Shown: piece after piece, positions 33,862 to 41,613 of the stretch
Layout: every line of letters starts with the position of its first letter
How positions within the stretch are numbered: position 1 is the first letter of the stretch
Origin: Nannocystis pusilla
GTDB taxonomy: Bacteria > Myxococcota_A > Polyangia > Nannocystales > Nannocystaceae
Length of the DNA stretch: 64,000 bases
NCBI RefSeq assembly: GCF_051105105.1
Contig: NZ_CP185339.1
Reading direction: 5' to 3' (one strand)
Program-made: the position numbers and the translations under genes
Notes under the pieces: generated by a model
Told to the model about the DNA's origin: nothing
Database searches by the model: none
Seen by the model: only the letters and a program-made list of their open reading frames with translations

Positions 33862-35325
33862 ATGACTCACGTCCTGCTCCCCGTGCTCGACGCCTTCGCC
33901 GACCTGCGGACCCTCGTGATCGGCGAGGCCATGCTCGACGCCTACCTCGACGGCCACAGCGAGCGGCTGTGCCGCGAGGCCCCGGTGCCCGTCGTCGACG
34001 TCGACGCGCGCCGCAACGTCCCCGGCGGCGGCGCCAACACGGCCGTCAACGCGGCCGCGCTCGGGGCCCGGGTCACCTTCCTCTCCGTCGTCGGCGGCGA
34101 CGACGAGGCCGACCGTCTGGCCCGCGCCCTGGCCGCCCTCGGCGTGCCCGCCCACGGCCTCGTGCGCGCCGGCGGGCGCCGCACGCTCGTCAAGCAGCGC
34201 GTCCTCGCCGGCGGCCAGATCCTCCTGCGCCTCGACGCCGGCAGCCGCGACGACCTCGACCCCGTCACCGAGGCGCGCCTGTGCGAGCGCCTGCGGGCCG
34301 CCTGGGGCGACGTCGACGCGGTCATCGTCTCCGACTACGGCTACGGCGTCCTCACGGGCGGCGTGATCGACGAGATCGCCGCGCTGCAGGCCGCCCACCC
34401 GCGCGTGCTCGTGGCCGACGCCAAGGACCTGCGCCGGCTCGCGCGCGCCCGGCCCACCGCCGTCAAGCCCAACTACTGCGAGGCCGCGCGCCTGCTCGGC
34501 CTCAGCAACGGCCACGGCGACGGCCGCGTCGAGCAGATCGCCGCCCACGAGGCCGAGTTCCTGCAGATCACCGGCGCGCGGATCGCCGCCGTCACCCTCG
34601 ACTGCGCCGGCGCCCTGGTCTTCGAGACAGGTCAGCCCGCCTACCGCACCTACGCCCGGCCCTCGTCCGACGCCAACGCCACCGGCGCCGGCGACACCTT
34701 CGTCGGCGCCCTCGCCCTCGCCCTCGCCGCCGGCGCCCCGACCCACGCCTGCGCCGACCTGGCCTCCAGCGCCGCCAGCCTGGTGGTCGCGCGCGACGGC
34801 ACCACCGCCTGCAGCGCCGCCGAGCTGCGGGTCCACCTGGCCTCGCAGGACAAGCTGCTCGGCCACGACGACCTCGCCCTGCTCGCCGACTGCCTGCACC
34901 GCGCCGGCAAGCGGCTCGTGTTCACCAACGGCTGCTTCGACATCCTCCACCGCGGCCACATCACCTGCCTCAGCCGCGCCAAGGCGCTCGGCGACGTCCT
35001 GATCGTCGGCCTCAACGCCGACGCCAGCGTCCGCCGGCTCAAGGGCGCCGCCCGCCCGATCAACTGCGCCGCCGATCGGGCCCAGGTGCTGGCCGCCCTC
35101 TCGTGCGTCGACCACATCGTCGAGTTCGCCGACGACACCCCGACCCGCCTCATCGAGCTCGCGCGGCCCGACGTCTACGTCAAGGGCGGCGACTACAGCC
35201 TCGACAAGCTGCCCGAGGCCCCGCTCGTGTCGCGCCTCGGCGGCGAGGTCTGCTTCATGCCGTACCTCGACGACTTCAGCACCACCGGGCTTTTGGCCCG
35301 GCTCGGCGAACGGGGCCCGGGATGA
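33862..35325 (+). CDS. hldE: bifunctional D-beta-D-heptose 7-phosphate kinase / D-beta-D-heptose 1-phosphate adenylyltransferase
   Basis: N-terminal ribokinase-like domain (VLVIGEAMLDAY, ATGAGDTFVGAL). C-terminal cytidylyltransferase domain (LVFTNGCFDILHRGHITCLSRAKALGDVLIVGLN). Confidence 0.85.
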   Translation: MTHVLLPVLDAFADLRTLVIGEAMLDAYLDGHSERLCREAPVPVVDVDARRNVPGGGANTAVNAAALGARVTFLSVVGGDDEADRLARALAALGVPAHGLVRAGGRRTLVKQRVLAGGQILLRLDAGSRDDLDPVTEARLCERLRAAWGDVDAVIVSDYGYGVLTGGVIDEIAALQAAHPRVLVADAKDLRRLARARPTAVKPNYCEAARLLGLSNGHGDGRVEQIAAHEAEFLQITGARIAAVTLDCAGALVFETGQPAYRTYARPSSDANATGAGDTFVGALALALAAGAPTHACADLASSAASLVVARDGTTACSAAELRVHLASQDKLLGHDDLALLADCLHRAGKRLVFTNGCFDILHRGHITCLSRAKALGDVLIVGLNADASVRRLKGAARPINCAADRAQVLAALSCVDHIVEFADDTPTRLIELARPDVYVKGGDYSLDKLPEAPLVSRLGGEVCFMPYLDDFSTTGLLARLGERGPG

Positions 35326-36425
35326 GCTGGTCGTCCGCCCGCCGCGTCCTCGGCGTCCGCCTCGACACCGTCGGCGACGTGCTCATGACCACCCCGGCCC
35401 TGCGCGCGCTCAAGGAGGGCCACCCGCAGCGCCACCTCACCCTTCTCACCTCGAGCCCCGGCGCCGTCGCCGGCCGCCTCGTGCCCGAGATCGACGACGT
35501 CTGGACCTACGACGCCGCCTGGCTCAAGGCCAGCCCCGCGCGCCGCGACGCCAGCCTCGACCGCGGCGTGATCGACCGCCTCCGCGCCGCCCGCTTCGAC
35601 GCCGCCGTCGTCTTCACCGTCTACAGCCAGAACCCGCTGCCCGCCGCCCTCCTCACCTACCTCGCCGACATCCCGCTGCGCCTGGCCCACTGCCGCGAGA
35701 ACCCCTATCAGCTCCTCACCGACTGGGTCCCCGAGACCGAGCCCGAGCGCGGCGTGCGGCACGAGGTCACCCGCCAGCTCGACCTCGTCGCCGCCGTCGG
35801 CCTGCGCCCCTCGCATCACCGCCTGTCTCTCCGGCCATGTCCTGAAGACCACCTCGCAGCCGAGGCCGAGCTCCGCCGCCTGTCCCTCGGCCGGCGCTGG
35901 GCCGTCGTCCACCCCGGCGCCACCGCCAGCTCGCGCCGCTACCCGCCCGCCGCCTTCGCCGTGGTCGCCCGCGCCCTCGTGCGCGACCACGGCGTGGGCC
36001 TCGTGTTCACCGGCGCTGGCGACGAGGTCTCCCTGGTCGAGCAGATCCGCGGCGCCGCCGGCGTCCCCACCCACTCGCTCGCCGGCCGCCTCTCGCTCGG
36101 CGCCCTCGCGGCCGTGATCGGCCGCGCCGGCCTGCTCATCAGCAACAACACCGGCCCCGCCCACGTCGCCGCCGCCATGGGCACCCCCGTCGTCGACCTC
36201 TACGCCCTCACCAACCCGCAGCACACCCCCTGGGCCGTCCCCGCGCGGGTCCTGAGCCACCCGGTCCCGTGCGCCCCCTGCTACCGCTCGACCTGTCCCG
36301 AAGGCCATCACCTGTGCCTGCGCGGCGTCGCCCCGGCCGCGGTCGTCGCCGCCGCCCTCGAGCTGCTGCGCCCCGGCGCCCGCGAAGCCTCCACCGCCGC
36401 GCCGGTCCCCCTCGTCCTCTCGTGA
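35322..36425 (+). CDS. GT9 ADP-heptose:LPS heptosyltransferase (WaaF/WaaC-like)
   Basis: VLGVRLDTVGDVLMTTPALRALKEG, AVVHPGATASSRRYP, ISNNTGPAHVAAAMGTPVVDLY. Start overlaps hldE stop (ATGA). Confidence 0.8.
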   Translation: MSWSSARRVLGVRLDTVGDVLMTTPALRALKEGHPQRHLTLLTSSPGAVAGRLVPEIDDVWTYDAAWLKASPARRDASLDRGVIDRLRAARFDAAVVFTVYSQNPLPAALLTYLADIPLRLAHCRENPYQLLTDWVPETEPERGVRHEVTRQLDLVAAVGLRPSHHRLSLRPCPEDHLAAEAELRRLSLGRRWAVVHPGATASSRRYPPAAFAVVARALVRDHGVGLVFTGAGDEVSLVEQIRGAAGVPTHSLAGRLSLGALAAVIGRAGLLISNNTGPAHVAAAMGTPVVDLYALTNPQHTPWAVPARVLSHPVPCAPCYRSTCPEGHHLCLRGVAPAAVVAAALELLRPGAREASTAAPVPLVLS

Positions 36426-36696
36426 CGCATCGCCCAGGCCCCCGACCGCTCCGAATCGCCCTCCACAATCTCATGAGCACGCCCCCCGCTGTCGCTTGCG
36501 ACCTCGCAATGTCATGAGTCCACCCGCTCACATCGCCGCCCCGAGCCACCGAGCCCGCCGCTCCCCAAGCCACGAGTCAGCTCGCTCTCCGCGGCTCAAC
36601 ACGGTGCCCTGCGTTCGCCCGAGCGACCATCTCCCCCTGCTCACCGCTCCCCGTCACCCATCCCGCGCAATGCCATGACCTGCCCGACGTGAGCCC

Positions 36697-37885
36697 ATGC
36701 CTCCACGCAACGACCTGCTCCCCGACGTCGCCCCGCTCGCCCTCGATCCCCGGCCGCGGCTCGGCCGCGACTACTCGCGGGTCGCCGCGCCGGGCCCCGC
36801 CGCGTCTCTCGATCGCGCGCGTCCCCTCGACTGGTCGCGCGTGCGGCGGATCCTCGTCGTCCGGCTCGACAACCTCGGCGACGTCATCCTCACCGGCCCG
36901 GCCCTGCGCGCGCTCAAGGCTCATCTCCCGCACCTCCACCTCACCCTGCTCGCCAGCCCCGGCGGCGCCGCGGCGGCCGCCCTGCTGCCGTGGGTCGACG
37001 ACGTTCGAGCCCTGCCGCGCCCTGTGGCAGGACCTGGGCCGCCTCGCCTTCGATCCTGCGCGCGAGCGCGAGCTCATCGCCACCCTGCGGCGCGGCGAGT
37101 ACGACCTCGCCCTCATCCTCACCAGCTTCAGCCAGACCCCGCACCCGGCCGCCCTCGCCTGCGCCCTGGCCGGCATCCCGATGCGGGTCGGCGAGTCGCG
37201 CGAGCGCGGGCGGGCCCTCACCCTCGCCCTGCCGCACGCCGACGACGGTCTCCACCAGTGCGAGCGCAACCTCCAGCTCGTCGAGCGCCTCGGCGTGCCG
37301 GTCGTCGATCGCCGGCTCGAGATCCGGCTCCCGCGACCGGCCTGGAGCGCCGCCCAGGCCCGCCTGGCCGCCCACGGCGTCGCCGGCGACTACCTCGTGT
37401 GGAACCCCTTCGCCAGCTGCGCCGCGCGCACCTACGACCCCCTGCGCCACGCCCTCGCCGCCCGCGCCCTGGCCGAGTACGCCGACCTGCGCCTCGTCGT
37501 CTGCGGCGCCGCCCGCGACCGCGAGCGCGCCCGCGAGCTCCTCCCGCTGCTCGGCCCGCGCGGCCTCGACCTGGTCGGAGAGACAGATCTACCCGAGTTC
37601 GCCGCCCTCCTCGCCGGCGCCCGCCTCGTCCTCACCAACAACACCGCCGCCCTCCACCTCGCCGACGCCCTCGCGGTGCCCCAGCTCGTCACCTACGCCG
37701 GCACCGACCGCGACAGCCAGTGGAGGCCCCGCACCTCGCCCCACCGCCTGCTGCGCCGCCCCACCGCCTGCACTCCTTGCTATCGCTTCGCCTGCCCGAC
37801 CGGCCACGAGTGCCTCGCCCTGGCCCCCGCCGAGGTCCTCGCCGCCGGCCTCTCGCTGCTCGCCGAGACCGCCGTGCGCACCTGA
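36697..37885 (+). CDS. GT9 heptosyltransferase-family glycosyltransferase; +1 frameshift at about 37003
   Basis: ILVVRLDNLGDVILTGPALRALKAHLP in ORF 36697. Remainder (YLVWNPFASCAARTYDP, LTNNTAALHLADALAVPQLVTY) in ORF 36689..37885. The two join when the extra T in gacgTtcgag (reverse complement ctcgaACGTC) is removed. Confidence 0.7.
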
Positions 37886-37999
37886 AGCCCGGTCCACCTG
37901 CGGCGTGCGCGAGAGCTGAGAGCGAGCCGCAGCGTCGCCGCGACGGCAGGCCGCTGACCTGCCGCGCGTCCGACCGAGCTCGCTACGAGCGCGGCGCCG

Positions 38000-38542
38000 C
38001 TACGGCGCGGGGCACATGCCCTTGTCGTTGTACCCGTTGTAAAACAGCCCGCGGCAACGTCCGCAGTAGCGCCATTGCCCCTGGCCGATCGAGCTATTGC
38101 CGCCTTGATGGTCATTCGGCAGGTAGAACACCCAACCGACGGGGGAGTGCTCCCCGCCTGCGGGACATACCGAGCCGAGGCTCTGATTGCCTGGTGCCCA
38201 GAACAGGCCGTGGCACTTGCCGCAGAACCGCCAGTCTCGTTGGCCCGTGCTGTCGGTCGCGCCCATCTGATCGTTCGGGAGATAGAAGTTCAACCCCTGG
38301 AGAGCGTGTTCCCCTCCGGACGGGCATACGGTGCCGACTGTCTCCCCATTTTGCGCATAGAACATCCCGAAGCACTTGCGGCAGAACCGCCAGTCCTCCT
38401 GGCCGGGGAGCGCGGGGGCCCCCGCGGCGTCATTGGGGATGAAGAACTCCCAGCCCGCGGCGACGTGCCCGCCGACTCTGGAATGTTGGCACCCGTCGCG
38501 CCGATCGGCGAAAGGCGCGCCGTTCGAATGGTCTTTCGTCAT
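38000..38542 (-). CDS. small Cys-rich protein with three ~49-aa tandem repeats of unknown function
   Basis: Repeat pattern Q.DWRFC.KC.G(L/M)F.......G.VCP.GGEH...G..FYLPND occurs three times (WRFCRKCFGMFY, WRFCGKCHGLFW, WRYCGRCRGLFY). Each repeat carries C-x2-C...C-x4-H, suggesting a metal-binding knuckle. Good GC3. No signal peptide. Confidence 0.55.
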   Translation of the reverse strand: MTKDHSNGAPFADRRDGCQHSRVGGHVAAGWEFFIPNDAAGAPALPGQEDWRFCRKCFGMFYAQNGETVGTVCPSGGEHALQGLNFYLPNDQMGATDSTGQRDWRFCGKCHGLFWAPGNQSLGSVCPAGGEHSPVGWVFYLPNDHQGGNSSIGQGQWRYCGRCRGLFYNGYNDKGMCPAP

Positions 38543-39139
38543 GGTCTCCTCCGATTCCAGGAAACGATGCCTCGAGACGGACCCCCGGCCGGCCGAATCG
38601 TGGTGCCGACCACAGCAGCGCCACGAAATCGCTCGCCCCGCGGAAGACATCGCGCTTTGTCGCCACGACACGGCGGAGCCTTCTCGGTCGGAGCGCAGCA
38701 GCGAACCTCGGAGCGCGCGAGGAGCACGCAGGGCCCGGCCCGGGCGCCGAGGACGACGCACGAGCGCTCCCGCAGCGCCGGTCTTACGGCCTCGCGCCGC
38801 CGCCCCGGACCGATTTCGCGCCCTTCCTGGGCCGGCCGCGCCACGGGGTCCCGCCTGCGAGCACCCGGACTCGCATCATTCGCAAATCTCGAGTCTGCTG
38901 CAGCAGCCTGAAGTATCGACGCCCCGAGCTGCGGCTGAGACCGTCCCACGGCCCGCGGCGCACCGATCGATCCGGCCGCCGCGCACCGTGCGCGATCGCC
39001 TGAGACCCGGCATCGAGCGCAAACGGGACCCCCAGCAGAGCGGCCCGCACACCCCTCTACGCCCCATCCCCTGCGATTAGTGGGAACCGCCGCGCAGGCA
39101 ACTGCCAACAAAATCTCCCCCGAGGAGGGAACACTCGCC

Positions 39140-39325
39140 ATGCATCTCGAACGAGTCGAAACCCGATCGGAACAGAGCCACGGCACCGCCGTGGAGCCGT
39201 GGAGCAACCTCGACGAGGACGACTTTCTCCTCGCGGCCGAGGCCAGCCTCGAAGCGCTGTACGAAGGTGAGGACGAGGAGGAGCTGTCCCCGGACGACAT
39301 CGAGGAATTGCCCGAAGATCCGTAG
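39140..39325 (+). CDS. small acidic hypothetical protein
   Basis: MHLERVETRSEQSHGTAVEPWSNLDEDDFLLAAEASLEALYEGEDEEELSPDDIEELPEDP. Short and compositionally biased; may be spurious. Confidence 0.25.
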   Translation: MHLERVETRSEQSHGTAVEPWSNLDEDDFLLAAEASLEALYEGEDEEELSPDDIEELPEDP

Positions 39326-39641
39326 GCCGATCTTGCCGTCCGGTCCGACATCCGGGACCCGCCGCTCTACATAATCTCTACATCACCCAGACTTGCTCAC
39401 CGCCGGGCACCGCGCAGACCGCTGATACCCATCATGGCCCTCGCCCCGAGGAGTGATTGCCACCCGGACTGACGCCCGCGCCATGGCTCGGAGCCTCGCC
39501 TCGGCGCCTGCCTGACGCAGCGCGCCGCGGGACGCCCGGCGCCTCGGCGCCTGCCTGATGCAGCTCCCCGCGCGACGCCCGGCCGGGACTCTCACAGCGG
39601 CTCCGCCGTCCCGCCCCGTCCTGCGGCATCATGGCGCTGCC

Positions 39642-40454
39642 ATGCGGTTCGGTCCCGGACAGTTTTTCGGCCGCTTCGAGCGACGGCGTACGGCTCACGG
39701 CCTGGCGCTCGCCGATCTGCGGCCGACCGTGCCCGAGCACGAGGTTCACCGGCACACCCACGAGGACGCCCACTTTCTGCTCTTGCTCGCCGGTCGCTAT
39801 CTCAGCAGCGCGCGCGGCATGCCGGCCGTCTGCGAGCACCCCGCGCTCGTCCTCAACCCGCCGGGCACCACCCACCAGGATCGCTTTCGCGGCCTCGACG
39901 GCCGCTTCTTCACCCTGTCCATCCCGGTCGCGGCCTGGCGAACCGCCGCCAACACCTGCCCGCTCCCCGACCACCCCGTGCGGCTGGGGACGGCGGCCCT
40001 GCTCGCGGGCTATCGCCTGTGCCACGAATTGCCGCGCTGGGACGATGCCTCGGCGCTCGTCGTCGAGTCCGAATATCACCTGCTCCTCGGCGAGGCCGCG
40101 CTCGACGCCCGCGAGCGGCGCTCGTCCGGACCGCCCTGGCTGGCTCGCGCGCGCGAGCAGCTGCACGACACCGGCGCCGCCACTCCGCGCCTGGCCGAGC
40201 TCGCCGCTGCCGCCGACGTCCACCCCGTGCACTTCTCGCGCGCCTTCCGGGCCCGCTACGGCCGCTCCCCCGGCGAGTACCTGCGCCACTGTCGCCTCGA
40301 GCGCGCCAGCGCCATGCTGCGGGACCTCCGCAACTCCCTCGCCGACATCGCGGCCCAGTGCGGCTACGTCGATCAGAGTCACTTCAGCCGCGCCTTTCAC
40401 CGCGCCTATCGGCTCACGCCCGCCGCCTTCCGCCGGCTCGTGCGGCCGGCCTGA
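39642..40454 (+). CDS. AraC-family transcriptional regulator
   Basis: C-terminal double HTH ([43 protein letters not shown]...[30 protein letters not shown]). Confidence 0.8.
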
Positions 40455-40521: not shown

Positions 40522-41613
40522 ATGCCCGCCTTCAAGCTGTTCGCCGCCTGCCCCCTCGCCCTGCTGCTCCTCGTCGACGCCACCGCGGCGTCTTGCACCG
40601 CCGACGCTCCGGCCCCGCTCGCCTCGCCTCCGCCGCCGCGCCTCGAGGACGCCACGAGCGCCGTCGAGGCCGGCGAATTCGGCCACATCACCAGCGTCCT
40701 GGTCGCGCGCGACGGCCAGCTACTCTACGAGCATTACTTCGACGACGGCGGACGCGAGGCCGCGCGCAACACCCGGTCCGCCACCAAGACCCTCGCCGGC
40801 ATCCTGGTCGGCCAGGCCATCGCCGACGGCAAGCTGCCCGGTCCGCAAGCCCCGATCCTCGATTATCTCGCGTCATACGGCCCGCCCGAGCACCCCGATC
40901 CGCGCAAGGCGGAGATCACCGTCGAGGACCTGCTGACGATGTCGTCGCTGCTCGAATGTCACGACGAGAACCAGTTCTCGCGCGGCCATGAGGAGCGCAT
41001 GTACCTCGTCGAGGATTGGGTCAAGTTCTACCTCGACCTGCCGATCCAGGGCTTCCCGGCCTGGATGCCGAAGCCGGCCGATTCACCGTACGGCCGCAGC
41101 TTCCGCTATTGCACCGCCGGCGTGACCACGCTCGGCGCGGTGCTGCAGGCCGCGACCGGCGAGCGCCTCGACGCCTACGCCCAGCGCCGGCTGCTCACGC
41201 CGCTCGGCATCGCCGCTCCCAAATGGCAATACTCGCCGCTGGGTCTGCCGCAGGCCGGCGGCGGGCTCGGCCTGCGCAGCCGCGACCTGCTGGCGCTCGG
41301 CCAGCTCTACCTCGACGGCGGCCGCCATGCCGGCCAGCAGCTCGTGCCCGCCGAGTGGGTCGCGCGCTCCGTGCAGCCGCACGCCCGCGTCGACGAGGGC
41401 GTCGAGTACGGCTACCTGTGGTGGCTGATGCAGTTCCCGGTCGGCGACCAGATCTGGCACTCGTGGGCGATGAACGGCAGCGGCGGCAACACCGTGCAGG
41501 TGTTTCCGGCCCAGCGAGTCGTCGTGGTCATCACCACCACCAACTTCGACCGCCCCCAGCCGCATCGCCTCACCGCCAAGCTGCTGACCGACAAGCTCCT
41601 CCCGGCCCTGTGA
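40522..41613 (+). CDS. secreted serine hydrolase, beta-lactamase/transpeptidase-like fold
   Basis: Signal peptide ([24 protein letters not shown]). S-x-x-K motif (RSATKTLAG). YGYLWW and [19 protein letters not shown] typical of class-C beta-lactamase-like proteins. Confidence 0.75.

What the first reader, a model, noticed from the sequence alone, without database searches (positions are those of the whole stretch)
38000..38542. Small protein made of three Cys-rich ~49-aa repeats (DWRFC-KC-GLF ... CP-GGEH ... FYLPND) of unknown family
The 180-aa product consists almost entirely of 3.5 tandem repeats. Each repeat has conserved Trp/Phe/Tyr positions plus a C-x2-C ... C-x4-H constellation, suggesting a tandem zinc-knuckle or lectin-like beta module. 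It has no signal peptide or TM segment, and I cannot place it in a described domain family. It sits between the LPS-core cluster and an AraC/serine-hydrolase/ABC-exporter group.
Basis: seen in the sequence. Interest (0 to 1): 0.5.

Follow-up and report, generated by a model that had tools for sequence, protein, structure and literature searches.

The report
Three-repeat putative zinc-binding domain, family unnamed
This small Nannocystis pusilla gene is real and encodes one compact domain built from three zinc-knuckle-like repeats; the domain belongs to a large, unnamed bacterial family usually attached to secreted proteases, glycosidase-like enzymes and lectins, so it is probably a target-binding module, but its function is untested.

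Summary
Window 38000-38542 (minus strand) encodes a 180-aa protein, 100% identical to an N. pusilla 'hypothetical protein'. It is under purifying selection (dN/dS 0.16 against strain Na p29).

It contains two full 53-aa repeats plus an N-terminal and a C-terminal half-repeat that together make a third unit. Each unit has an invariant W, C-x2-C, C-x5-H pattern, giving three putative Cys3His metal sites.

The family is large: 3152 cluster representatives across many phyla. Repeats occur as 3, 6, 9 or 12, and other sequence interrupts an array only after every third repeat. The functional unit is therefore a closed triplet.

Partner domains are M23, astacin and M6-like peptidases, DUF4185/GH183-like domains, tectonin, tachylectin and TIR. 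Many stand-alone members carry Tat leaders.

The Nannocystis copy is circularly permuted relative to most members. Its closest relatives (54-56% identity) are triplets inserted inside DUF4185-like proteins.

Best reading: a metal-stabilised (probably zinc) binding module, probably for a cell-surface polymer. Metal binding and ligand are both inferred, not shown.

The parts
38000..38542 (-). Complete ORF (180 codons plus TAG) for the triple-repeat Cys3His protein
   Evidence: 100% identical to an NCBI hypothetical protein of Nannocystis pusilla. Codon-position GC is 0.61/0.53/0.81. dN/dS is 0.16 against strain Na p29.
38547..38552 (-). Shine-Dalgarno-like GGAGGA, 4 nt upstream of the ATG
   Evidence: Read directly from the sequence. 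Identical in strain Na p29.
38474..38542 (-). N-terminal 23 residues outside the repeat core. No signal peptide. Contains a non-conserved extra Cys18.
   Evidence: Mean pLDDT is 54-63 over residues 1-20 and below 50 for residues 16-19 in both models. Three of the 9 amino-acid differences from Na p29 fall here.
38402..38473 (-). N-terminal half-unit (aa 24-47: GGH26-VAAGWEFFIPND plus linker). It supplies the His ligand and the long beta-strand of the third unit.
   Evidence: H26 is invariant in in-phase alignment A2. Strand 28-35 is modelled at mean pLDDT about 83-95 only with A2. Similarity to the C-terminal halves of repeats 1 and 2 gives z 8-9.
38243..38401 (-). Full repeat 1 (aa 48-100): Q48, W51, C54-x2-C57, C73-x5-H79, NFYLPND
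   Evidence: Strands 48-54, 59-62 and 81-88.
38084..38242 (-). Full repeat 2 (aa 101-153): Q101, W104, C107-x2-C110, C126-x5-H132, VFYLPND
   Evidence: Strands 101-107, 112-115 and 134-141.
38003..38083 (-). C-terminal half-unit (aa 154-180): Q154, W157, C160-x2-C163, C177. It lacks its own His and long strand, which the N-terminal half-unit provides.
   Evidence: W157, C160, C163 and C177 are invariant in A2. Strands 154-160 and 165-168. The composite of aa 154-180 plus aa 25-47 aligns with a full repeat at z 18-19.

Best explanation
SHOWN:
- The ORF is a genuine, selectively maintained gene of Nannocystis pusilla.
- Its product is a single compact all-beta domain built from three homologous units of about 53 aa.
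- Each unit carries an invariant Trp, a C-x2-C knuckle and a C-x5-H half-site.
- The domain belongs to a very large, phylogenetically broad family that no public resource searched here names or models.
- In that family the repeats always act in threes.
- The Nannocystis copy is circularly permuted relative to most members: it starts with the last third of a unit and ends with the first two-thirds.
- Triplets inserted into DUF4185/GH183-like proteins have the same phase, and these are its closest relatives.

INFERRED, fairly strongly:
- Each unit binds one structural metal ion, most simply Zn2+, through Cys3His. That would give three metals per domain.
- The third site clamps the N- and C-termini together (C160, C163, C177 with H26).

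INFERRED, weakly:
- The domain is a non-catalytic recognition module that holds its carrier on a polymeric target, most likely a bacterial cell-surface glycan or cell-wall component.
- In this family it is appended to secreted peptidases, glycosidase-like domains and lectin domains.
- In N. pusilla it is made as a free, leaderless protein. That protein would bind the same kind of ligand on its own. Its cellular location is unknown.
For: Real gene:
- Homologues reach E 1e-44 in other phyla.
- The syntenic orthologue in strain Na p29 is 95% identical, with 18 synonymous against 11 non-synonymous changes and dN/dS 0.16.

Family size: a profile search found 3152 representatives at E<=1e-3 and 1046 at E<=1e-30. 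Hosts include Actinomycetota, Acidobacteriota, Bacteroidota, Cyanobacteria, Chloroflexota, Bacillota and Proteobacteria.

The triplet is the unit:
- Motif counts among 205 proteins are 3 (102 proteins), 6 (36), 9 (23) and 12 (4).
- Spacings over 80 aa occur at 31% of junctions after every third repeat and at 0 of 314 junctions inside triplets.
- Repeat identity is higher at offsets 3, 6 and 9 (0.49-0.61) than at other offsets (0.41-0.47, except 0.33 at offset 11, from 2 pairs).

Metal ligands:
- H26, C54, C57, H79, C107, C110, C126, H132, C160, C163 and C177 are invariant, and C73 is at least 90% conserved.
- W, C, C, C and H are the only invariant columns in 70 single repeats.
- Three Cys per unit is an odd number, which is poorly suited to conserved disulfides.
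- The only Pfam and PDB matches, all sub-threshold, are zinc fingers or zinc ribbons: IRF-2BP1, DZR, Zn_Ribbon_1, Rpb9, AccD and BED.
- By a crude count, 42 members have Tat-type leaders against 6 Sec-like. This suits a protein that folds and loads its cofactor before export. Another 42 have no leader at all.

Permutation and closure:
- AlphaFold with in-phase alignment A2 gives pLDDT 90.9, pTM 0.82 and 9 strands, 3 per unit, including strand 28-35.
- The out-of-phase alignment left residues 7-43 below pLDDT 50.
- The best relatives are DUF4185-embedded triplets: P0107 at 56%, and P0163, P0068 and P0064 at about 54%.
- DUF4185 profile positions 5-68 lie before the insert and about 190-309 after it.

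Binding-module role, from fusion partners:
- Peptidase_M23 (8 of 95), astacin, pro-kumamolisin, LamG, LGFP, tyrosinase and PT-HINT.
- Tectonin and tachylectin.
- DUF4185. [quoted passage not shown]
- An M6-like metalloprotease region, sub-threshold.
Against: - No metal analysis, structure or binding data exist. Atomic coordinates of the model could not be inspected, so the site geometry is unverified.
- The Nannocystis protein has no export signal, whereas a cell-surface ligand would be extracellular.
- 42 of 205 family members also start directly with the repeat, so part of the family may work in the cytoplasm.
- TIR, PT-HINT and tyrosinase fusions do not point specifically to glycans.
- About 70 of 95 multidomain members have partner regions with no Pfam match at E<=1e-5, so the partner census is incomplete.
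- Gene neighbourhoods are not conserved.
- The Na p29 orthologue carries a 1-nt deletion in a C5 run. If real, the gene is dispensable in that strain.
Confidence: 0.5

Rival explanations
1. Evolutionary by-product. The gene is a detached copy of the triplet module that normally sits inside DUF4185-like enzymes. It has little or no independent function and is on its way to decay.
For: - It has the same permuted phase as DUF4185 inserts and 54-56% identity to them.
- Among one-genome-per-species myxobacteria it was found only in N. pusilla.
- GC is 65% against 72% for the window.
- The Na p29 copy has a frameshift.
Against: - dN/dS is 0.16, with all ligand residues and the SD conserved between strains.
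- Downstream of the frameshift there are 4 synonymous against 2 non-synonymous changes in the original frame. The deletion lies in a homopolymer of a long-read-sized contig, which is typical of a sequencing error.
- No DUF4185 remnants flank the ORF.
Confidence: 0.15
2. Cytoplasmic zinc-finger protein that binds nucleic acid or a partner protein (BED or zinc-ribbon style), possibly working with the divergently encoded AraC-type regulator.
For: - No signal peptide.
- Marginal profile hit to the Hermes BED finger (E 0.0095) and zinc-ribbon-like motifs.
- An AraC gene is adjacent here and also in Streptomyces sp. NBC_00091.
Against: - All zinc-finger hits are below threshold.
- Many family members are Tat-exported or fused to secreted peptidases and lectins.
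- AraC adjacency is absent from 19 other loci, and the two AraC proteins are alike only in the HTH region.
Confidence: 0.1
3. The Cys3His sites bind something other than structural zinc, for example an Fe-S cluster, iron or copper, making a redox or electron-transfer module. Alternatively, in exported members the cysteines form disulfides.
For: - Cys3His ligation also occurs in some Fe-S proteins (general knowledge).
- Tat export is typical of redox-cofactor proteins.
- One tyrosinase fusion.
Against: - No match to CDGSH, rubredoxin or ferredoxin models at E<=10.
- The spacing C-x2-C...C-x5-H with flanking beta-hairpins resembles zinc ribbons.
- The partner domains are hydrolases and lectins, not redox enzymes.
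- An odd number of Cys per unit argues against disulfides.
Confidence: 0.1
4. Sensor or effector module of conflict systems (immunity or toxin delivery) that recognises a foreign molecule and signals through attached domains. The free copy would act as a decoy or adaptor.
For: - TIR-TM-triplet proteins such as P0049 and P0167; the TIR part weakly matches ThsB-like models.
- A PT-HINT toxin fusion.
- A neighbour next to a phage-tail-like gene in L022.
Against: - The triplet itself matches no PADLOC model.
- TIR and toxin fusions are a small minority: 2 and 1 of 95.
- This is still a binding role, so it overlaps the best explanation.
Confidence: 0.1
5. Spurious ORF in GC-rich DNA.
For: Many long artefactual ORFs overlap this region on both strands.
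Against: - Homologues in many phyla.
- Purifying selection.
- A ribosome-binding site.
- A confident structure prediction.
Confidence: 0.01

Closest known systems
Zinc-ribbon / rubredoxin-knuckle domains (Pfam DZR, Zn_Ribbon_1; Rpb9/TFIIS N-ribbon; AccD N-terminal ribbon)
   Same: - An aromatic residue followed by a C-x2-C knuckle on a beta-hairpin, then a second half-site about 15-17 residues later that starts C-P.
- Four putative ligands per unit.
- These are the only kinds of model that give even weak hits.
   Different: - The second half-site is C-x5-H, not C-x2-C.
- Three units are fused into one obligate triplet with an extra long strand per unit.
Beta-trefoil lectins / CBM13 (ricin-B, (QxW)3)
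   Same: - A pseudo-threefold domain built from three repeats of about 40-53 aa with a conserved Gln and Trp in each.
- Used as an accessory module on hydrolases.
- A Ricin_B_lectin gene lies near one homologue (L027).
   Different: - The motif is Q-x-x-W, followed by metal-type ligands.
- The model has 9 rather than 12 strands.
- No Pfam Ricin_B match.
Cell-wall-targeting domains of lytic enzymes (SH3b of lysostaphin-type M23 peptidases, LysM)
   Same: The triplet occupies the same architectural position, C-terminal to Peptidase_M23 (P0129, P0151 and 6 others).
   Different: No sequence or fold similarity. The ligand is unknown.
DUF4185 / GH183 endo-D-arabinofuranases (PMC10115798)
   Same: The query's closest relatives (54-56% identity) are triplets inserted after about profile position 68 of divergent DUF4185 domains.
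   Different: The Nannocystis ORF contains no DUF4185 sequence, and none is detectable in its flanks. The characterised GH183 enzymes are not reported to carry this insert in the passages of the paper retrieved.
BED zinc finger (Hermes transposase, PDB 8eb5)
   Same: A W-x-F-C-x-x-C start. This is the best PDB profile hit (E 0.0095).
   Different: BED is a single C2H2-type DNA-binding finger. The hit covers one knuckle only and is not significant after allowing for the cysteine-rich query.

Membership tests
Unnamed 'W-CxxC...C-x5-H triplet' family (defined here from homologues) | Significant full-length sequence similarity to other members | tested here: met
   58 hits at E 1e-44 to 6e-8. In the profile search the query itself scores E 2e-74.
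Unnamed 'W-CxxC...C-x5-H triplet' family (defined here from homologues) | Three units, each with invariant W, C-x2-C, C and H | tested here: met
   - W51, C54, C57, C73, H79.
- W104, C107, C110, C126, H132.
- W157, C160, C163, C177 plus H26.

Unnamed 'W-CxxC...C-x5-H triplet' family (defined here from homologues) | Canonical phase: the domain starts at QxxWRFC and ends at xFxLPHD | tested here: not met
   The query is circularly permuted. It shares its phase with DUF4185-embedded triplets.
Unnamed 'W-CxxC...C-x5-H triplet' family (defined here from homologues) | Binds three metal ions | not testable with these tools
   Inferred from invariant ligands only.
Any Pfam-A / NCBIfam / PADLOC family | Score at or above the curated cut-off | tested here: not met
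   - Best Pfam hit scores 19.4 bits against a cut-off of 26.
- NCBIfam: 0 hits.
- PADLOC: 0 hits.
Zinc ribbon (C-x2-C ... C-x2-C) | Two C-x2-C knuckles and a significant HMM or structural match | tested here: not met
   - The first knuckle is present.
- The second is C-x5-H.
- HMM E-values are 0.011-4.3.
- PDB profile E-values are 0.36-6.
Beta-trefoil / ricin-B lectin | (QxW)3 motif, 12-stranded trefoil, structural match | tested here: not met
   - Q-x-x-W motif and 9 strands.
- No Pfam hit.
DUF4185 / GH183 | Match to PF13810 in the ORF or its flanks | tested here: not met
   No PF13810 hit for the ORF. tblastn of eleven DUF4185+triplet proteins matches only 38003-38540, through their repeat parts.
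Tat/Sec-exported stand-alone triplets | N-terminal twin-arginine or Sec leader with a hydrophobic region | tested here: not met
   The N-terminus MTKDHSNGAPFADRRDGCQHSRVGGH has an RR but no hydrophobic stretch. The upstream in-frame extension has none either.

The most novel reading that the evidence does not exclude
The triplet is a previously unrecognised metal-dependent, pseudo-threefold protein fold (three zinc-ribbon-like units closed into one domain). It would constitute a new, widespread family of carbohydrate/cell-wall-binding modules. Soil predators and competitors (myxobacteria, actinomycetes, Acidobacteriota) would use it to aim peptidases and GH183-like arabinanases at prey envelopes. 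Both circular permutants would have been exploited: one for terminal fusion and one for insertion into enzyme loops.
Probability: 0.25. Interest if true: 0.65.

Novelty: new variant of a known kind. Interest (0 to 1): 0.45.

Why it matters
If the inference holds, this is an entry point to a domain family of more than 3000 sequence clusters. The family has no name, no Pfam model and no solved or obviously similar structure. It decorates many secreted peptidases, GH183-like enzymes, lectins and some TIR proteins across at least seven phyla.

Defining its fold, metal content and ligand would annotate thousands of 'hypothetical proteins'. It could also reveal how predatory and competitive soil bacteria target their lytic enzymes.

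The 180-aa leaderless Nannocystis protein is a convenient minimal construct, because it is one complete domain and nothing else. The family is also a clean natural example of circular permutation linked to domain insertion.

It does not bear on a long-standing open question, and the likely role as an accessory binding module is conventional.

Tried and rejected
- Family scans found nothing. Pfam at E<=10 gave only sub-threshold zinc-finger models. NCBIfam and PADLOC gave nothing for the ORF.
- PDB sequence searches with the single sequence, the triplet profile and the single-repeat profile found nothing significant. The best was the BED finger at E 0.0095.
- The afdb50 library was unavailable, so predicted-structure space was not searched.
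- Rfam found nothing on 37800-39700.
- The idea that the ORF is a leftover of a decayed DUF4185 gene was rejected. tblastn of DUF4185+triplet proteins finds no DUF4185 sequence anywhere in the window.
- A conserved operon partner was rejected. Neighbourhoods differ in Streptomyces, Actinomadura, Pyrinomonadaceae and a metagenome contig. AraC adjacency recurs only once.
- An intrinsic terminator downstream was not supported. The hairpin at 37945-37963 has no T-run, and the 88-nt downstream stretch containing it (37915-38002) folds no better than shuffles (z -1.4). The only terminator-like hit near the 3' end lies inside the ORF. No sigma-70-like promoter was found.
- The pattern-based genome scan with alignment A2 failed because it had no conserved 7-10-column stretch. 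The single protein was used instead.
- Literature searches for the motif or for a zinc-ribbon CBM found nothing relevant.
- P0001 is not on record in the gene-position index.

Full report
**What is there**

The finding's coordinates hold a minus-strand ORF (ATG at 38542, TAG at 38000-38002). A GGAGGA lies 4 nt upstream of the ATG. The 180-aa product is 100% identical to an NCBI 'hypothetical protein' of Nannocystis pusilla on a 12.2-Mb contig. The window is therefore from that myxobacterium.

Codon-position GC (0.61/0.53/0.81) fits this frame. Overall GC of the ORF is 65%, against 72% for the window. The many other ORFs overlapping the region are the usual artefacts of GC-rich DNA.

**The repeat is real**

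- Residues 48-100 and 101-153 share 29/53 identities, z = 33 against shuffles.
- The period is 53 aa (W51, W104, W157).
- Residues 18-47 match the C-terminal half of a unit. Residues 154-180 match the N-terminal half. Joined together they align with a whole unit at z 18-19.
- The protein is therefore two full units plus two complementary halves. That makes three units, not 3.5.
- The second half-site is C-x5-H, not C-x4-H.

**The gene is maintained**

- The species-level genome scan found a syntenic orthologue in N. pusilla strain Na p29. Nucleotide identity is 92-96% over 12.5 kb, and the protein is 95% identical.
- That copy has a 1-nt deletion in a C5 run at codon 134.
- With the deletion corrected, there are 18 synonymous and 11 non-synonymous changes, giving dN/dS 0.16.
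- Downstream of the deletion the changes are still mostly synonymous in the original frame. A homopolymer sequencing error is therefore the more likely explanation, but a very recent frameshift is not excluded.

**Family**

- No Pfam, NCBIfam or PADLOC model reaches threshold. The only weak hits are zinc-finger or zinc-ribbon models.
- The word-indexed search gave 58 homologues in Streptomyces, Nocardia, Actinomadura, Sphaerisporangium, Pyrinomonadaceae, Blastocatellia and metagenomes.
- A profile of these hits scanned against 1.84 billion cluster representatives found 3152 proteins at E<=1e-3 and 1046 at E<=1e-30.
- The genome scan added Cytobacillus, Spirosoma, Nostoc, Actinoplanes, Mycobacterium, Thermoanaerobaculia, Chloroflexia, Saprospiraceae, Hyphomicrobiaceae and a beta-proteobacterium.
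- Wherever a source gives a name it is uninformative: 'hypothetical protein', generic labels such as 'uncharacterized membrane protein' or 'Tat pathway signal protein', or the name of the attached partner domain. None names the triplet.

**The unit is a triplet**

- Among 205 retrieved proteins the W-x2-C-x2-C motif occurs 3, 6, 9 or 12 times in 165 of them.
- In proteins with 6, 9 or 12 motifs, spacings over 80 aa occur at 31% of junctions after every third repeat and at none of 314 junctions inside a triplet.
- Repeats are more alike at offsets 3, 6 and 9 (0.49, 0.57, 0.61 identity) than at other offsets, which run 0.41-0.47 apart from 0.33 at offset 11 (2 pairs).
- This is independent, sequence-only evidence that three repeats form one closed domain.

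**Circular permutation**

- Typical members run from QxxWRFC to xFxLPHD three times.
- The Nannocystis protein instead begins ...GGH-VAAGWEFFIPND and ends ...QWRYCGRCRGLFYNGYNDKGMCPAP.
- The same phase is used by triplets embedded in DUF4185-like proteins. These start HGGHxxxGWxFxLP right after the DUF4185 'LVAWTDD' segment, end at KGxCxGA, and then DUF4185 resumes.
- These embedded triplets are the query's best matches: P0107 residues 107-272 at 56% identity (tblastn E 5e-56, blastp E 2e-61), and P0163, P0068 and P0064 at about 54%.
- The DUF4185 assignment passes Pfam's cut-off in L004 and P0163. Profile positions 5-68 lie before the insert and about 200-309 after it.
- No DUF4185 sequence is detectable anywhere in the window. 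The Nannocystis gene is therefore a free-standing copy, not a visible wreck of a larger gene.

**Conserved positions and structure**

- In an in-phase alignment of 43 sequences the invariant columns are H26, W51, C54, C57, H79, W104, C107, C110, C126, H132, W157, C160, C163 and C177. C73 is at least 90% conserved.
- In 70 single repeats the invariant columns are W, C, C, C and H only.
- This gives three Cys3His constellations. The third joins the N-terminal His to the C-terminal cysteines.
- AlphaFold2 with the out-of-phase alignment modelled residues 45-180 well but left residues 7-43 below pLDDT 50.
- With the in-phase alignment it gave pLDDT 90.9 and pTM 0.82, with nine strands in three equivalent sets that include strand 28-35.
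- Profile searches of PDB sequences gave only marginal zinc-finger or zinc-ribbon hits: BED finger E 0.0095, AccD ribbon E 0.4-0.7 and Rpb9 E 4-6.
- The AlphaFold database could not be searched. I could not inspect coordinates, so the site geometry is unverified.

**Why a structural metal, probably zinc (inference)**

- The ligand set is invariant.
- The number of Cys per unit is odd.
- The first knuckle and its hairpin resemble zinc ribbons.
- The domain occurs both in leaderless proteins (42 of 205) and in exported ones.
- The exported ones overwhelmingly use twin-arginine leaders, 42 against 6 Sec-like by a crude count. This suits a domain that folds around a cofactor before export.
- Fe-S or another metal is not excluded.

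**What it does (weaker inference)**

Fusion partners with significant Pfam matches among 95 multidomain members, plus P0066 scanned separately, are:

- Peptidase_M23 (8 members)
- DUF4185 (3 at E<=1e-5, more at weaker scores)
- astacin (2)
- TIR (2)
- one each of tectonin, tachylectin (in P0066), pro-kumamolisin, LamG, LGFP, tyrosinase and PT-HINT.

A frequent N-terminal partner has sub-threshold similarity to M6 metalloproteases.

DUF4185/GH183 enzymes are endo-D-arabinofuranases acting on mycobacterial cell walls and are found in Myxococcus among others (PMC10115798).

A non-catalytic repeat domain appended to secreted lytic enzymes and lectins is most simply a substrate- or surface-recognition module. 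It would be analogous in role, not in fold, to SH3b, LysM or CBM13.

Points against over-reading this:

- About 70 of the 95 partner regions have no Pfam match at E<=1e-5.
- Neighbourhoods are not conserved, although hydrolase, lipase and lectin genes recur nearby.
- The Nannocystis protein has no leader.

**Context in the window**

- The gene is convergent with a GT9 heptosyltransferase-like gene (36689-37885).
- It is divergent from a small acidic ORF (39140-39325), an AraC-type regulator (39558-40454), a beta-lactamase-family hydrolase (40522-41613) and an ABC exporter.
- No Rfam element, sigma-70-like promoter or convincing terminator was found around it.

**Verdict**

- The 'zinc-knuckle / unknown family' reading is supported at the sequence level. 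It is refined to a closed, circularly permuted, three-site domain.
- The lectin-like role is plausible but circumstantial.
- The finding is a solid lead to an unnamed, very widespread domain family with no detectable solved-structure relative. The likely biology, an accessory binding module, is conventional.

Noticed in passing
window 39140-39325 (+): Small acidic ORF of 61 aa (MHLERVETRSEQ...DDIEELPEDP) with GGAGG about 9 nt upstream. Codon-position GC is coding-like at 0.73/0.40/0.77, measured over the longer 39080-39325 ORF that contains it. Against strain Na p29 it shows 6 synonymous and 2 non-synonymous changes (my count from the alignment), while the stretch upstream of the ATG has frame-breaking indels. 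No Pfam match. It is probably an unannotated small gene between the triplet gene and the AraC gene.
   Followed up: partly
L001 about 6397 (N. pusilla Na p29 orthologue): Single-base deletion in a C5 homopolymer at codon 134 of the orthologue. Sequence downstream is still conserved in the original frame. This is either a long-read assembly error or a very recent frameshift.
   Followed up: partly
L021 6819-8579; window 38000-40454: An AraC-family regulator lies next to the triplet gene in both N. pusilla (divergent) and Streptomyces sp. NBC_00091 (immediately upstream, same strand). The two regulators are alike only in the HTH region, and 19 other loci show no such neighbour.
   Followed up: yes
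L021, L022, L025, L027 and window 40522-41613: Genes for secreted-type hydrolases or lectins recur near stand-alone triplet genes, without conserved order: LIP lipase, Lipase_3, M23 peptidase, GH26, beta-lactamase-family hydrolases and a Ricin_B lectin.
   Followed up: partly
Proteins P0065, P0087, P0093, P0096, P0098, P0099, P0105, P0108, P0113, P0115, P0117, P0127, P0164, P0189, P0194: A recurrent N-terminal partner domain starting '..PWAVILCKFSDV..' carries 6-11 repeats C-terminally. In the two members scanned (P0065, P0096) it has only sub-threshold similarity to the M6 metalloprotease domain TIGR03296 (28-30 bits against a cut-off of 110.8) and no significant Pfam catalytic-domain match. 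P0065 also has no PDB sequence match.
   Followed up: partly
Proteins P0009, P0012, P0018, P0019, P0041, P0051, P0055, P0121 and others; also P0016, P0032, P0083, P0092, P0145, P0149: Two further partner regions; the members scanned had no significant Pfam or NCBIfam match beyond weak sub-threshold hits. One is a C-terminal extension of about 130 aa ending in a hydrophobic tail, found on leaderless triplets. The other is an N-terminal '...AIKxTAEA...RSVVLxIxNxT' region.
   Followed up: no
Repeat sets from P0060-P0205: A distinct sub-type of repeat (QxxWRWCxKCQGLxFAGxxxxGxCPAGGxHDxxGSGNYxL) coexists with the WRFC/...NFVLPHD type. It may mark a functionally different subfamily.
   Followed up: no
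L022 544-1920: In Streptomyces sp. yr375, about 3 kb upstream of the triplet gene, a 458-aa gene has faint zinc-ribbon and NADase_transloc hits. It directly follows a phage-tail-like Tail_P2_I gene. This may be a contractile-injection-system cargo.
   Followed up: no
window 33969-36425 (+): The 818-aa ORF is mostly an Arg/Pro-rich artefact of GC-rich DNA. Only its C-terminal part, roughly from the internal MSWSSARRVLGV sequence onward, looks like the real gene; the GT9 heptosyltransferase domain itself maps to aa 536-780.
   Followed up: partly
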